DNA from: Escherichia coli
Lineage (GTDB): Bacteria > Pseudomonadota > Gammaproteobacteria > Enterobacterales > Enterobacteriaceae
Assembly (NCBI RefSeq): GCF_051903065.1
Contig: NZ_CP178438.1
Reading direction: 5' to 3' (one strand)
DNA: 64,000 bases
Below are positions 31,201-36,636 of the stretch, piece after piece; positions within the stretch are counted from its first letter, which is position 1; the number at the start of each line of letters is the position of its first letter. A program made the position numbers.

Positions 31201-34200
31201 GGGCTTCCGGGATTGGATTTCCTGCATCCAGAGCGTTATCAATCACCGGATCAAAATCCACAAACCAGGATTTGAACAGGGTTTGGGACATTTGTTCCAA
31301 GGTTTGGTTCATGGATGAAAGTGTTGTGATTTTGTCATCAAAAGCTTTGAGACTCTTGACTATTAAATCTTGAACATTTAGCGAAGGAGCAGATATTTCT
31401 ACATTCGCTAGATCATTGATGGTTATTTGGCTTTGAGCAGAACCGCTATCAAGATATCGTAAATTACTCTGTAGAAACAGATAATAAAAATATTCTTTTC
31501 TTACTTTTGTTTCATCCAAATTTATTTTAATGGACAAATTTGTTAAATAACAATCTCTAGTCGTTATTTTAACATCGCCAGTTCCACCAACACCTCGGGC
31601 AACAACAATTAACTCACCTGCCGAAGTATTTTTTTCAGGGTAGCTTTCTGTGTATTTATATCCTGAAAAAATGACATAGTCACCTGTACCAACAAACTCC
31701 TTTTTAGGCATTTTTCCGTATGAAAATTCAGCTATATCACCTAAGCGATATATACACCACTTATTCCCCATAACCCAGCGCCTCCAAATTCTTGCGAATC
31801 GCACGATCCAGTTCTTCCGCCTGCTTCATCTGCTCAAACAACGTCTTCGACAATTCGCGCATTTTCGTCTCAAATGCCACGCCGTCTTCTTCCTGCTCGG
31901 CTGCACCCACATAGCGGCCCGGTGTCAGTACGTAGTCGTTATCTTTAATATCTTGCAGGGTTGCAACTTTGCAGAAGCCTGCCTGGTCTTCATATTTTTC
32001 CAGCTTGCTGTCACCACGCGCAATCCGTGCAGCCAGTTCTTCCGGCGTACTGCGCCAGGCATGGTAGGTATCGGCGATTGTGGCAATATCTTCCGCCGTT
32101 AACTCTTTATTTGTGCGGCTAATCATGGTGCCGAGGTTACGCGCATCAATAAACAGCGTCTCGCCCTGACGATCACGATAACCTTTGGCCGGATCGGCAG
32201 CCTTCGATTTGGTCATAAACCATAAACACACCGGGATTTGCGTGGTGTAAAACAACTGACCTGGCAGAGCGATCATGCAGTCGATTAGATCATTTTCGAT
32301 CATCTGTGCACGGATCTCTCCTTCGCCGCTGGTGTTAGAACTCATCGATCCGTTTGCCAACACAAAACCTGCTGTGCCGTTAGCCGACAGCTTGGAGAGC
32401 ATATGCAAAATCCAGCCGTAGTTGGCGTTACCGGTTGGCGGCATACGATAACCGGCAAAGCGTGGATCTTCGGTTAATTCGGCTTCATTGCGCCAGTCTT
32501 TCAGGTTGAACGGCGGGTTCGCCAGAATGTAGTCGGCTTTCAGGTCCGGGTGCTGGTCGCTAAAGAAAGTGTTTGCCGGGCGTTCGCCGAGGTTAGCTGA
32601 AAGACCGCGAATGGCGAGGTTCATTTTTGCCAGTTTATACGTCGTGGCTGTCAATTCCTGACCATACAGCGCGATATCACGACTTTTACCCTGATGGCTC
32701 TCGACAAATTTCACCGACTGCACGAACATCCCCGCCGAACCGCAGCACGGGTCATAAATTTTGCCCTGAAAGGGTTCGAGCATTTCAGTTAACAGCGTAA
32801 CCACACATTTGGGCGTGTAGAACTCACCCCCGCCTTTGCCTTCAGTTGCGGCAAACTTACCGAGGAAGTATTCGTAAACGCGTCCGACCAGGTCTTCTTT
32901 CGATAACGTTTCAACGTCAGTTTCGTGTGCCAGCGTTTCGATGTTGTCGATGGTATCAATCAGTGACGCCAGTTTTTTGGTTTCCAGATTCTGACGGCTG
33001 AAGTAGTTGTCTGGCAGCGCGCCTTTCAGCGTTGGGTTACGTTTCTCTATGGTCGAGAGGGCGGTGTCAATACGGACCGCAATATCGTCCTGTTTGGCAT
33101 TTTGTTTGATAAAAGACCAGCGCGCTTCTTCCGGCAGGTAGAAAATGTTGTCCTGCTGGTAGAACACTTCCATCTCAAGGAAGTCAGCTTGCCCATCGGC
33201 AATCATTTTTTTGCGGCGTGCTTCAAATTTATCGCTGATGAATTTCAGGAACACGAGGCTCAACACCACGTGCTTGTATTCGGAGGACTCAACGCTACCG
33301 CGAAGCTGGTTTGCGGTATCCCATAATGTTTCTTCAAAGCCTTTCTTTGCTTTGGCTTTTTTAGTTAGTGCTTTGGCCATGATGAACTCTGTTCAGATAA
33401 ATTGGGTCGCTATTGTAATGGTAGAGGCGGCGGATTTCGCCCTTTAATCCATCTCCAGCTCATCAAACAACTGCAAATCCACATCCAGCAATTCCACTGC
33501 ATTGCTGCGGCGAATGCCGACGTTATTTTCGATTAACAGTTCCAGTAAGCGATCGCCGTCGATAAGCGTAATGGGCGCGGCCCCCGGAAAGAGCGCCGCT
33601 TCTGCACATTTCGCTGCAAATTTCCCGGTGGTGATGAGTGTACCGCGAATGGCTTTGTGGTAAGGCAATGCCCCGCGCAACTGGTCGATATACGGGCGGG
33701 TAATGGTGTTCTGCATTCTTTTGACCTGCACCACCTCGGTTATGGTGGTGATGCCGACCTGCACCTGACCAATCACGTCCACGCCTTTATCGCCAGAGGC
33801 TTTGGTCACTTCGACCTGCTCGTAGCCCATTGCTTCCAGTAATTGACCGACCAGTTGTTCAAATTTGTACGGGTTCATTGTGCTGATTTGTTCGCGCAGC
33901 AGCTCTTTTTGCTGCTCGTTGTAGCGTTTCACCGCTTCCAGCAGCTCTTTACGCGGATCGCTTTTTCGTGCTGGCAACGCTTTTCCAAGCCAGGCGCGCC
34001 CGGTATCGGTGATGCGATAGCTCATGCCTTCGCGAGTAACCATGTCGCGGTCGATAAGATTATAGAGTCGGGAGTAGAGCGTACTTTTGGCTGACCGGTC
34101 AGAAGCAAATTTCGAATGTTGATGCAAAAAGGCCTGCCATTCCGGCAATAAATCGGCGCGGCGTGACATTTCGCGACCAGCTAATAGTTCAAGCAGTTGC

Positions 34201-36636
34201 AGAATGCCTTCCTGGTCGTCCAGTGAACGCAGCGTTTTTTCGTCATCTTGCAGGAATTTTTGCCCGCGCGAGGTGGGCAGCCAGGTATCATCTGGCGTGC
34301 TTTCCATCAGCTCAAACTGGGGATAGTTGAGGAATAAGTAGCAGCCGTAGCTGTGGCGCGGATTCAGAATGTGATTGTCAGTATCCCAGATGCGACGGGC
34401 GATGTCGGCATCTTCACCCGTTAAGCGCTCGCTGATCCACAGGTCGGGTTCTGACCAGTCAACGGGTTTTTGCGGCGTACCGGTTTGATCGCGAATGGCG
34501 GTAATCATATTGCGTACCGCTTTCAGGGAATAGCCTGAGACGGCTTTCATCATAGCTTTAACCTGTGCATAGGTAGGAAAAAGCGGGGTAATAACTTTAT
34601 AGTTTTTCACGGTAATCCCTTAACGACAGCGAGGTGTTTAGTGTGCCATGTCAGGCGAGAAATTCTATTGGATGAATCAAGTCCAACTTACTCATTGTCA
34701 ATTTCATGGTTGATTATCCAAAACGTGATGCTATTTCCAACATCAACGCTATAATTGCAGAATAATTGTAGATACATTTTTGTATATACAATTAGGGATG
34801 GCAACTATGCCAATGGAGTTTGAATGGGATGCAAACAAGGCCAAAAGTAATCGGGTGAAACATGGCATCCGCTTTGAAGATGCGGTGTTAGTGTTTGATG
34901 ATCCACAACATTTGTCACAGCAAGATCGCATAGAAAACGGTGAGTATCGCTGGCAGACTATCGGCTTGGTTCACGGTATCGTGGTTATTCTGGTTGCGCA
35001 TACCATCCGTTTCGAAAGCGGAAATGAAATTATTCGAATCATCAGTGCACGAAAAGCAGATCGTAAAGAGAGGAGTCGCTATGAGCATGGTTAAACATAA
35101 ACGAGGGGCACCCTCTACACTCGATGTGCAGCATGAGGCCGAACTGAAGGCACTGGCGAATAAATCCGACGAAGATATTGATTACAGTGATATCCCGCCT
35201 TCCAGCGATGAGCAATGGTCTAACGCAGAACGCGGTAAGTTTTATCGGCCATTGAAAACTCAGGCTTCGGTGCGTATTGATGCTGATGTGATGGAATGGC
35301 TGAAGCGACCAGGTAAAGGCTATCAAACTCGCCTGAACGCAATTTTACGTGAAGCGATGCTGCGCGATCAGAACAAAAAATAATTCAGGCCGCCACATGG
35401 CGGCCATCATCCAAAATTACTTCCTCAACCCCGCAAACGCTGCCCGAATCTCTTCCTCCGGCAACTGAATCCCGATAAACACCATTGTGCTATGCGGTGT
35501 TTCATCACCCCACGGCCTGTCCCAGTCGGCGCTGTAGAGGCGCTGGACGCCCTGGAATAGCAGGCGGTTAGGTTCGCCGTCAATCCACAGCATCCCTTTG
35601 TAACGCAGCAGTTTATCCGCCGATTCCAGCAGCAGGTTTTCCATCACCCGGGAAACTTCGCTGATATCTACCGGGTAATCCAGTTCCACCACAATCGACG
35701 AAATATCGTTTTGTTTATCCGCGATAAAGTGGAAACGCGGTTTGGTGCTGACGACGTTCTCTTCCAGCATAAAACCGTTGGTGTTGAACAGCAGGCCCAG
35801 GTCGATGTCGCCGTGGGTGACGGTGTAGACCGGTGCACGGGCGTTGATGCGCGCCAGGCGTTCACGCAGTTTTTCTGCTTCGCCTGCGACGTCGGTTTTA
35901 GTCAGCAGAATACGGTCGGCGTAGCCCACCTGGGACTGGGCGATGGTGAACTGGTTCATCTGCTCATCGGCATGTACCGCATCCACCAGCGCAATCACGC
36001 CGTCCAGCAGGTAACGCTGGCATAAAATCTCATGGGAGAAAAAGGTCTGAATAATCGGGCCGGGATCGGCCATGCCGGTGCATTCAATGACCAGACGATC
36101 GAACTGAATATTGCCCTTGTCGAGATTATCCAGCAGGTCGAGTAGTGCGTCTTCCAGCTCGTTGGAGCGCGAACAGCAGATGCAGCCGTTGGTCAGCGTT
36201 TTGATCTGCGTGGCGCGGTCGCCAATCAGTTGATCATCAACGGAGACTTCGCCGAATTCGTTTTCAATCACGGCAATCTTGTAGCCGTGTTGTTCGTTAA
36301 GAATATGGCGCAGCAGGGTGGTTTTGCCCGCGCCTAAAAAACCGGTGAGTAGGGTAACTGCAATCGGGTTCATGCTCTCTCCATTAACAACAGCGCATAC
36401 CGCCTTTACCATCGCCGCCGTAGCGCGCGTTCTGGCGTTCGCGGAAGAATTCTTCATAGCTCATGTACGGCTTGTCGGGATGGTTGGTCTTCATATGCTC
36501 GACGTAGTTGTCGTAGTCTGGAATGCCAATCAACATCTTCGCCGCCTGGCCGAGATATTTTTTTGCCTGTCCTAAGTTACCAAACATTTTGCCTTCCAGA
36601 TATGCGTAAAGCCCGGAAGGTCCGGGCTGGGGATTT

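What the first reader, a model, noticed from the sequence alone, without database searches (positions are those of the whole stretch)
33444..35383. Mrr-family nuclease with an unrecognised N-terminal region, co-oriented immediately upstream of a type I R-M operon and flanked by a BrnT/BrnA toxin-antitoxin pair
The 388-aa protein ends in a clear Mrr catalytic signature (GDKGVDVIG...EVVQVKR), but its first ~250 residues match nothing I recognise, unlike the short N-terminal domain of K-12 Mrr. It sits 63 bp upstream of hsdM on the same strand, where K-12 has mrr divergent next to hsdR. BrnTA lies directly on its other side. This could be a modification-dependent (type IV) nuclease with a new sensor domain, possibly co-regulated with the type I system.
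Basis: partly seen in the sequence, partly recalled or inferred. Interest (0 to 1): 0.72.

Follow-up and report, generated by a model that had tools for sequence, protein, structure and literature searches.

The report
Long-form Mrr nuclease, uncharacterised sensor
This is a real and common E. coli restriction-type nuclease (in 16% of complete genomes, including ST131 and a Nissle 1917 derivative) whose cutting domain is a standard Mrr type, but whose 215-residue front end is an unnamed two-part DNA-binding-like module that other bacteria attach to several other restriction nucleases, and what it recognises is unknown.

Summary
A 388-aa ORF (33444..34610, minus strand) ends in an intact Mrr_cat nuclease. 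It lies 63 bp upstream of hsdM on the same strand and is divergent from brnT/brnA. The locus is the E. coli immigration control region.

The gene is not unknown. RefSeq calls it "restriction endonuclease", PADLOC matches it end to end as candidate PDC-S02, and 880 of 5426 complete E. coli genomes carry it.

Residues 1-215 have no Pfam, NCBIfam or PDB sequence match. They model confidently (pLDDT 91) as two helical modules, each ending in a β-hairpin. PDB fold matches are winged-helix regulators spanning only one module's length, most likely module 2. Module 1 carries the most conserved motif outside the catalytic core.

This unit is a small, portable family of 460 representatives. Elsewhere it is fused to McrB-type AAA+ domains (one followed by an McrC-like gene), GmrSD_N, HNH and KAP NTPase domains.

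Best reading: a type IV-like nuclease with an uncharacterised targeting module. Modification dependence is inferred, not shown.

Type I linkage is frequent (6 of 12 contexts) but variable in orientation, and it is dispensable: about 9% of E. coli carriers keep the nuclease beside hsd remnants. brnTA is a commoner flank element, not a dedicated partner.

Verdict: a new variant of a known kind, of moderate interest.

The parts
34251..34610 (-). Module 1 of the N-terminal unit (residues 1-120). It has helices 14-24, 29-40, 55-62, 65-76 and 84-94, then a beta-hairpin at 102-112. It carries the invariant motif G44-T-P46-Q..D51-W52..P55..W58-I59..R62-L63..A71..I74-W75..N83-P84-R85..G89.
   Evidence: AF2 models have pLDDT above 90 here. 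There is no Pfam, NCBIfam or PDB sequence match. hhalign against Mrr_N gives 7% probability.
33966..34250 (-). Module 2 (residues 121-215). It has winged-helix secondary structure (helices 124-133, 136-146, 151-165 and 171-187, then hairpin 191-200) and sits in the position that Mrr_N occupies in EcoKMrr.
33873..33965 (-). Long connector helix (residues 216-246) between the sensor unit and the nuclease.
   Evidence: AF2 helix 219-244. It aligns to the EcoKMrr linker at residues 137-165.
33528..33872 (-). Mrr_cat PD-(D/E)xK nuclease domain (residues 247-361), with E251, D274, D278, E292, Q295 and K297 invariant across the family.
   Evidence: Pfam PF04471 at 3.8e-29. 31% identity to EcoKMrr at E=1e-19. 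hhalign probability 99.5%. Foldseek matches AspBHI and MspJI.
33444..33527 (-). C-terminal tail (residues 362-388) plus the stop codon. It aligns to the C-terminal tail of EcoKMrr.
34713..34740 (-). Promoter-like site (TTGGAA-16-GATAAT) about 100 bp upstream of the GTG start, in the 196-bp intergenic region shared divergently with brnT.
   Evidence: Consensus scan only. The number of promoter-like sites in the region is not above the shuffled expectation, so this is weak evidence.
33381..33443 (-). 63-bp spacer between the nuclease stop codon and the hsdM start codon. It holds no terminator-like hairpin and no consensus promoter.
   Evidence: The junction is conserved in 802 of 880 carrier genomes.
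31761..33380 (-). hsdM of the adjacent type I R-M system. It is not family IA, and is ID-like only by elimination.
   Evidence: NCBIfam and PADLOC matches. 24% identity to EcoKI HsdM. RefSeq annotation.
30422..31771 (-). hsdS (RefSeq start at 31771; the longest ORF extends to 31804).
27064..30327 (-). hsdR. It is preceded by a terminator-like hairpin at 30413..30394, which suggests it is a separate transcription unit.
34807..35094 (+). brnT toxin gene. It is a neighbour, not part of the nuclease system.
   Evidence: RefSeq annotation. PHROG 'ribonuclease toxin' at 5.7e-23. It is present in more than twice as many genomes as the nuclease.
35081..35383 (+). brnA antitoxin gene. It is a neighbour.

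Best explanation
This is a single-polypeptide restriction endonuclease of the type IV kind from the Mrr family. It works without a methyltransferase of its own. Its N-terminal 215 residues form a compact two-module unit that likely contains at least one winged helix. I infer that this unit binds DNA and selects the target, most likely a foreign base or backbone modification that E. coli itself does not make. A long helix connects this unit to a C-terminal Mrr_cat PD-(D/E)xK domain that cuts the DNA, probably as an oligomer as EcoKMrr and MspJI do. The gene has its own start and probably its own promoter, and may read through into hsdM. Functionally it complements the neighbouring type I system, which attacks unmodified DNA, rather than forming part of it. 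Shown here: the domain anatomy, an intact catalytic site, purifying selection, portability of the sensor unit across type IV chassis, and residence in defence islands. Inferred: DNA binding by the N-terminal unit, dependence on modification, and oligomeric cleavage.
Against: There are no experimental data on this protein. No paper cites its accession. A cold-seep PDC-S02 representative was not among the systems that protected against T7, T5 or T4 in a preprint, although PDC-S02 groups several HMMs and that protein may belong to a different subfamily. Neither module has significant sequence homology to Mrr_N or to any proven modification reader. Winged helices mostly bind unmodified DNA. Module 1, the most conserved part, has no demonstrated fold match of its own, because the fold-search output does not say which residues aligned. 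NA-iREase1, an 'inactive' nuclease family, also matches the catalytic region, though more weakly (1.7e-13).
Confidence: 0.55

Rival explanations
1. It is a guard or back-up nuclease coupled to methylation-based defences such as type I R-M and BREX. In this reading the N-terminal unit senses failure or inhibition of those systems, for example by DNA-mimic anti-restriction proteins or stalled complexes, and then releases the nuclease. This would be analogous to PrrC embedded in the EcoprrI hsd locus.
For: Six of 12 sampled contexts have a type I system within 2 kb and one follows a BREX cluster. In three lineages the gene is co-oriented within 63-82 bp of hsdM. The E. coli spacer has no terminator. 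The junction is conserved in 91% of carriers.
Against: Orientation and partner family differ at nearly every locus: upstream of hsdM, downstream of hsdM, downstream of hsdR, convergent with hsdR, and divergent from hsdR. Four of 12 contexts are solitary. The intact gene persists under purifying selection after the hsd genes are deleted. The same N-terminal unit sits on McrB-like, GmrSD and HNH chassis, which act on DNA directly. Clustering of type IV with type I genes is ordinary defence-island behaviour, as in K-12 mrr-hsdRMS-mcrBC.
Confidence: 0.1
2. It is a nuclease that does not depend on modification. The tandem winged-helix-like unit would recognise a DNA sequence or structure, or unmodified DNA, in the manner of FokI-type enzymes, with self-protection by some other means such as oligomeric latency like EcoKMrr or protection by the type I methylation.
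For: Foldseek matches the full model to FokI, N.BspD6I, BpuJI and EcoT38I. The wH matches are to ordinary sequence-specific regulators. No proven modification-reader fold (SRA, EVE, YTH, or the sulfur-binding domain SBD) was detected.
Against: There is no cognate methyltransferase in solitary loci, and the gene survives loss of hsdM. A sequence-specific cutter without protection would be toxic to its host. The fusion partners McrB, GmrSD and HNH_2 are chassis typical of modification-dependent enzymes. The TM-scores to FokI are poor, 0.22-0.31.
Confidence: 0.15
3. It is mainly a DNA-binding regulator or a cryptic, decaying gene. In this reading the winged-helix unit represses or positions the hsd and brnTA promoters, and the nuclease is vestigial.
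For: It sits between the divergent brnT promoter region and hsdM. The NA-iREase1 'inactive nuclease' family matches the catalytic region. EcoKMrr is itself largely cryptic in vivo. Truncated copies exist in databases and in strain B-1109.
Against: All catalytic residues are invariant across distant phyla. Mrr_cat scores far better than NA-iREase1. 879 of 880 E. coli copies are full length. Synonymous changes outnumber nonsynonymous ones by about 7 to 1. Homologs occur in many unrelated contexts, so a locus-specific regulatory role is unlikely.
Confidence: 0.07

Closest known systems
EcoKMrr (E. coli K-12 Mrr, type IV restriction endonuclease)
   Same: Both have a homologous connector helix, Mrr_cat domain and C-terminal tail (31% identity over 173 residues, E=1e-19; hhalign 99.5%). 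Both have a winged-helix-like module directly before the connector. Both lie in the same chromosomal island next to yjiA and a type I system. Neither has its own methyltransferase.
   Different: This protein is 84 residues longer. It does not match Pfam Mrr_N, whereas EcoKMrr does at 9e-20. It has an extra, highly conserved 120-residue module 1 that packs against module 2 (pTM 0.87). It lies co-oriented upstream of hsdM rather than divergent from hsdR. Its specificity is unknown, whereas EcoKMrr responds to certain 6mA and 5mC methylations.
MspJI / AspBHI family (SRA-like reader plus Mrr-like nuclease)
   Same: These are the best solved-structure matches for the catalytic domain (Foldseek E of about 7e-6; phmmer 0.019). 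The layout is the same: an N-terminal reader joined to a C-terminal Mrr-type nuclease.
   Different: Their reader is an SRA-like base-flipping domain.
McrBC-type systems (a variable N-terminal DNA reader on an AAA+ GTPase, plus McrC)
   Same: The same N-terminal two-module unit is found in place of the McrB reader domain on AAA_5 proteins, and one of these is followed by a DUF2357+PDDEXK_7 McrC-like gene. This shows the unit fills the role of a type IV targeting domain.
   Different: The window protein has no NTPase. It is a one-gene enzyme with no sign of translocation.
[quoted passage not shown]
   Same: In both, a winged helix is used as a DNA reader and fused to interchangeable nuclease domains. 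[quoted passage not shown]
   Different: Those enzymes read Dam-type G6mATC. A Dam-dependent enzyme would attack its own Dam-positive E. coli host, so this protein must read something else (inference). No sequence relationship to the DpnI winged helix was tested or seen.
PADLOC PDC-S02 (phage defence candidate, single gene)
   Same: The match to model PDLC04796 is full length (residues 1-386 of 388, E=1e-205). This protein belongs to the group from which that model was built.
   Different: PDC-S02 is only a catalogue label without mechanism or validation. It bundles several Mrr-type HMMs, of which only PDLC04796 covers the N-terminal unit.
FokI / BpuJI (multi-winged-helix recognition domain plus nuclease)
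   Same: The overall logic is the same: several helical or winged-helix modules recognise DNA and are tethered to a PD-(D/E)xK nuclease. Both appear among the Foldseek hits.
   Different: Those are type IIS enzymes with partner methyltransferases and defined sequences. The structural similarity is weak (TM 0.2-0.3), and there is no methyltransferase partner here.

Membership tests
Mrr family (Mrr_cat PD-(D/E)xK nucleases) | A significant match to the Mrr_cat domain | tested here: met
   Pfam PF04471 matches residues 243-359 at E=3.8e-29. hhalign to the EcoKMrr profile gives 99.5% probability.
Mrr family (Mrr_cat PD-(D/E)xK nucleases) | The catalytic residues D...(Q/E)xK, plus the upstream acidic residue, are conserved | tested here: met
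   E251, D274, D278, E292, Q295 and K297 are invariant in 38 homologs. They align with the GDGGID...VQAK motif of EcoKMrr.
EcoKMrr-type architecture (Mrr_N + Mrr_cat) | An N-terminal Mrr_N winged-helix domain (PF14338) | tested here: not met
   There is no Pfam Mrr_N hit, whereas EcoKMrr matches at 9e-20. hhalign of module 1 or module 2 alone against Mrr_N gives only 7-12% probability, with just the wing motif shared. Module 2 is positionally equivalent to Mrr_N, so remote homology is not excluded.
Type IV restriction enzymes | No cognate protective methyltransferase is required | tested here: met
   Homolog loci are solitary in 4 of 12 contexts. The intact gene is kept beside hsd remnants in about 9% of E. 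coli carriers.
Type IV restriction enzymes | Cleavage depends on a DNA modification | not testable with these tools
   This needs restriction assays on modified phage or plasmid DNA. It is only inferred from the fusion partners of the N-terminal unit.
PADLOC PDC-S02 | A full-length match to the family HMM | tested here: met
   PDLC04796 matches residues 1-386 against profile positions 1-383 of 390, at E=1.1e-205.
PADLOC PDC-S02 | Demonstrated anti-phage activity | not testable with these tools
   In a preprint, one PDC-S02 representative was not among the systems that protected against T7, T5 or T4. Nothing has been published on the E. coli protein.
Winged-helix DNA-binding domains | A winged-helix fold: a three-helix core plus a beta-hairpin wing | tested here: met
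Accessory gene of a type I R-M system (PrrC-like embedded guard) | Obligatory linkage to hsd genes in a fixed arrangement | tested here: not met
   Type I genes are adjacent in 6 of 12 contexts, but in five different arrangements and with different hsd families. Four contexts are solitary, one is next to BREX and one next to a helicase system. The hsd genes are deleted in about 9% of E. coli carriers.
Type ID R-M family (for the neighbouring hsdMSR) | Sequence similarity to StySBLI, EcoR9I or KpnAI subunits | not tested
   No type ID reference sequence was available. Family IA is excluded (24% HsdM identity). HsdR is 1091 aa, whereas the HsdR proteins carrying the EcoEI_R_C domain at the homolog loci are 892-941 aa; Pfam was not run on the window's HsdR. 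The review states that this locus holds only families IA, IB and ID, so the ID assignment is by elimination.
BrnT/BrnA toxin-antitoxin | A family match for both genes, which overlap as a pair | tested here: met
   RefSeq annotates a BrnT family toxin and a BrnA antitoxin. PHROG toxin matches at 5.7e-23 and the antitoxin families at 3.8e-27 and 1.1e-10. The genes overlap by 14 bp (35081..35094).

The most novel reading that the evidence does not exclude
The conserved two-module N-terminal unit, and especially module 1 with its invariant GTPQ..DW..P..WI..RL...NPR motif rich in tryptophan, aspartate and arginine, is a new class of reader for a DNA modification that no known type IV enzyme targets. 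It would be exchanged among Mrr, McrBC, GmrSD and HNH chassis. Candidate targets are a hypermodified phage base or a backbone modification. A more radical version is that the unit senses inhibition of type I and BREX systems rather than DNA.
Probability: 0.2. Interest if true: 0.7.

Novelty: new variant of a known kind. Interest (0 to 1): 0.42.

Why it matters
The gene is in about one in six complete E. coli genomes, including the ST131 pandemic lineage and a derivative of the probiotic and engineering chassis Nissle 1917. An active restriction nuclease of unknown specificity there could affect plasmid uptake, strain engineering and phage therapy. The N-terminal unit is a compact, confidently modelled, portable module with no name, no solved structure and no known ligand, and it recurs on four or five type IV-style effector chassis. 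Identifying its target could add a new reader domain to the restriction repertoire, and possibly a new reagent for detecting a DNA modification. The repeated but architecturally flexible pairing with type I systems is also a clean case for studying why type IV and type I defences travel together.

Tried and rejected
1. NCBIfam found nothing for the nuclease, BrnT or BrnA.
2. Sequence searches of the PDB, with the single protein and with the N-terminal profile, gave only a weak MspJI hit in the catalytic domain and noise or faint wH hints for the N-terminal region.
3. The hhalign tests for homology of module 1 or module 2 to Mrr_N, and for an internal duplication (module 1 against module 2), were all non-significant at 7-18% probability. 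I therefore rejected the claim that the unit is a duplicated Mrr_N.
4. The AFDB50 fold search of the N-terminal model returned only members of the same family and no named domain.
5. I rejected brnTA as a dedicated partner, because it is more than twice as common as the nuclease.
6. I rejected a phage-borne or plasmid-borne origin. The one 'phage' hit is a 501-kb Salmonella chromosomal contig. There are three plasmid records, and the E. coli one is 834 kb and probably chromosomal.
7. The Titheradge 2001 paper on type ID systems is not held in the library, so the type ID assignment could not be checked directly.
8. A literature search for the RefSeq accessions and for work on Nissle restriction systems found no study of this protein.
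9. I did not run the genome contigs or metagenome scans. Twelve contexts from cheaper look-ups were enough for a qualitative conclusion.

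
Full report
**Where the window comes from**

The window is a stretch of E. coli chromosome and is 100% identical to strain 23CRST027. The finding lies in the immigration control region (ICR), the variable defence island between yjiA and yjiN. On the minus strand the gene order is symE, hsdR (27064..30327), hsdS, hsdM (31761..33380), the gene in question (33444..34610), then yjiA, yjiX and btsT. brnT and brnA lie divergently on the plus strand between the gene and yjiA.

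**Checking the observation**

- The ORF encodes 388 aa from a GTG start with a good ribosome-binding site. Homologs begin within a few residues of the same point.
- The C-terminus contains GDKGVDVIG...EVVQVKR, and Pfam Mrr_cat matches residues 243-359 at 3.8e-29.
- The spacer to hsdM is exactly 63 bp.
- K-12 does have mrr divergent from hsdR.

The gene is real and under constraint. It occurs once, on the chromosome, in 880 of 5426 complete E. coli genomes, and it is full length in 879 of them. Carriers include ST131 strains and the Nissle 1917 derivative SYNB1934. Against two alleles that differ by 4-6% in nucleotide sequence, codon differences are 40 synonymous to 6 nonsynonymous and 58 to 8. 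Every amino-acid change falls in the N-terminal region.

**Is the N-terminal region really unrecognised?**

Partly.
- Pfam and NCBIfam give nothing significant for residues 1-240, and PDB sequence searches give nothing. As a control, EcoKMrr matches Pfam Mrr_N at 9e-20.
- PADLOC, however, has a model (PDLC04796, candidate system PDC-S02) that matches residues 1-386 at 1e-205. The family is therefore catalogued as a phage-defence candidate, but it has no described mechanism.
- UniProt and AFDB entries carry only generic names.
- A 2025 review of this locus already counts 'Mrr' (22%), type ID hsd (12%) and brnAT among its contents, and it does not distinguish this long form.

**Anatomy**

A 38-sequence alignment, reaching down to 51% identity and including Halomonas relatives and Kapabacteria, shows that the whole architecture is conserved. 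Outside the catalytic core, the strongest conservation is in residues 44-89: G44-T-P46-Q, D51-W52, P55, W58-I59, R62-L63, A71, I74-W75, N83-P84-R85 and G89.

AlphaFold2 models the N-terminal 218 residues at pLDDT 91.4 and pTM 0.87. The parts are:

| Part | Residues | Features |
|---|---|---|
| Module 1 | 1-120 | Five helices, then a β-hairpin |
| Module 2 | 121-215 | Four helices, then a β-hairpin |
| Connector | 216-246 | One long helix (219-244 in the model) |
| Nuclease | 247-361 | Mrr_cat α/β domain |
| Tail | 362-388 | Aligns to the EcoKMrr tail |

The fold searches gave the following.
- The full model also matches FokI, N.BspD6I and BpuJI weakly. These are multi-wH recognition domains joined to nucleases. 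It matches AspBHI and MspJI for the catalytic domain.
- A profile-profile comparison with an EcoKMrr family profile gives 99.5% probability. It is collinear from residue 118 to the C-terminus, which puts module 2 where Mrr_N sits.
- On their own, module 1 and module 2 match Mrr_N at only 7-12% probability and share just the wing signature.

I therefore describe the region as a tandem winged-helix-like unit. Module 2 corresponds to Mrr_N in position, but membership in that family is not demonstrated. Module 1 is an additional, conserved and unnamed element.

**The key new evidence: the unit is portable**

An exhaustive profile search of 1.84 billion cluster representatives with the N-terminal alignment finds only 460 proteins, 372 of them at E≤1e-10. 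Among the 150 best hits listed, full-length proteins match across both modules. Most have the unit followed by Mrr_cat at about 390 aa. Some add an N-terminal HARE-HTH domain (about 480 aa). One has two copies of the unit.

About 15 long representatives lack Mrr_cat. Pfam and PADLOC show that they carry:
- AAA_5, the McrB-type module (9 of the 19 proteins scanned)
- GmrSD_N (2)
- HNH_2 (1)
- KAP NTPase (1)
- NsnA-like and QatA-like modules, by PADLOC

One AAA+ fusion is followed 8 bp downstream by a DUF2357+PDDEXK_7 gene, which is the McrC architecture. A domain that is swapped among Mrr, McrBC, GmrSD and HNH chassis is behaving as type IV targeting or reader domains do. Nothing here shows DNA binding or dependence on modification.

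**Relationship to the type I system**

Within E. coli the cassette brnA-brnT, then divergently the mrr-like gene, hsdM, hsdS, hsdR and symE is conserved.
- The spacer before hsdM has no terminator-like hairpin and no consensus promoter. A clear hairpin with a T-run follows hsdS. Read-through from the nuclease gene into hsdM-hsdS is therefore plausible but untested.
- The junction is intact in 802 of 880 carriers. The rest (about 9%) keep an intact nuclease gene beside hsdM and hsdR remnants, for example strain T309.Ta3.

Twelve distinct homolog contexts were sampled.

| Neighbour | Loci | Arrangement |
|---|---|---|
| Type I system within 2 kb | 6 | Upstream of hsdM (E. coli); downstream of hsdM (Kushneria, Halomonas); downstream of hsdR (P0091); convergent with hsdR (Serratia); divergent from hsdR (P0114) |
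| BREX cluster | 1 | Nuclease gene directly downstream |
| Large helicase system | 1 | Nuclease gene directly downstream |
| None (solitary) | 4 | No defence genes adjacent |

The type I neighbours involve at least three different hsd architectures. The association is far above chance, but it is not a fixed operon. It looks like the classical pairing of a type IV enzyme with a type I enzyme in a defence island, as in K-12 mrr-hsdRMS-mcrBC.

The type I system here is not family IA: its HsdM is 24% identical to EcoKI HsdM. It is probably type ID, by elimination, but I could not test this directly.

brnTA is present in 1780-2112 genomes, more than twice the number that carry the nuclease. It is a commoner element of this flank rather than a partner.

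The N-terminal unit is essentially absent from phage records and is rare on plasmids.

**Mechanism proposed (confidence about 0.55)**

I propose a stand-alone nuclease of the type IV kind. The two-module unit binds DNA and selects a feature that E. coli DNA lacks. It must tolerate Dam, Dcm and the neighbouring type I methylation, which is an inference from the host. The connector helix couples the sensor unit to an Mrr_cat domain that cleaves, probably as an oligomer as EcoKMrr and MspJI do.

The rivals are:
- a guard coupled to type I or BREX systems (0.10)
- a sequence- or structure-specific nuclease that does not depend on modification (0.15)
- a mainly regulatory or cryptic protein (0.07)

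Experimental support is absent. No paper cites the accession. In a preprint, a PDC-S02 representative was not among the systems that protected against T7, T5 or T4, although that representative may belong to a different subfamily.

**Verdict**

This is a new variant of a known kind: an Mrr-family nuclease, already catalogued, with an uncharacterised and portable N-terminal module. Interest is moderate. A specialist would not be surprised by another type IV enzyme in this locus. Even so, the module has no name, no solved structure and no known ligand, and the gene is common in clinically and biotechnologically important E. coli lineages.

Noticed in passing
window 30394..30413 (-): A G+C-rich hairpin followed by a T-run lies between hsdS and hsdR. 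No such structure separates the mrr-like gene from hsdM. This suggests that mrr-like, hsdM and hsdS may form one transcription unit and hsdR another.
   Followed up: partly
window 33444..34610 (-), residues 40-214: All amino-acid differences between the window allele and the Nissle-type and T309.Ta3 alleles lie in the N-terminal sensor region, and none lies in the nuclease domain. They are L111Q, D171A, R172S, A174V, D189G, R199C, R40H, D41E, T192N and A214T, with a cluster at residues 171-174.
   Followed up: partly
L011 (NZ_CP128255.1) 9001..11047; also hits H77 and H78: About 9% of E. coli carriers have a deletion that joins a short 5' remnant of hsdM to a 3' remnant of hsdR and leaves the mrr-like gene intact. 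In strain B-1109 (L012) a different deletion truncates the nuclease gene itself and joins it to an hsdR remnant.
   Followed up: partly
window 6738..11978 (-): A 1746-aa inverse autotransporter adhesin of the IatC and intimin-like kind.
   Followed up: no
window 15613..17889 (-) and 14371..15339 (+): A 758-aa pentapeptide-repeat protein with PipB-like and Qnr-like repeats sits in a patch of low G+C content (0.33-0.37), next to an IS5-family transposase. The patch looks horizontally acquired.
   Followed up: no
window about 39261..50000 (-): A 4-hydroxyphenylacetate (hpa) catabolic cluster lies beyond btsT; in the K-12 stretch examined, tsr follows btsT directly. In the identical RefSeq genome, hpaG is annotated as a pseudogene with an internal stop.
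   Followed up: no
L005 (Kushneria) 5520..6482; L016 1736..2280 and 9143..10786: Other genes are inserted inside type I operons next to homologs of this nuclease. One is a TIR_2 domain gene between hsdS and hsdM. Another is a PemK toxin pair between hsdM and hsdS. A second nuclease gene, with TPR repeats and an Mrr_cat domain, lies nearby in L016.
   Followed up: no
protein P0121 (637 aa, metagenomic): A relative carries two tandem copies of the whole two-module N-terminal unit in front of a single Mrr_cat domain.
   Followed up: no
L014 8001..9158: One homolog sits alone between rtcB and rtcR, which are RNA repair operon genes, rather than in an obvious defence island.
   Followed up: no
H95 and H96 (Vibrio parahaemolyticus 60.7-kb conjugative plasmids): The only clearly plasmid-borne copies of the N-terminal unit are on these plasmids, at 38% identity. 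Everywhere else the family appears to be chromosomal.
   Followed up: no
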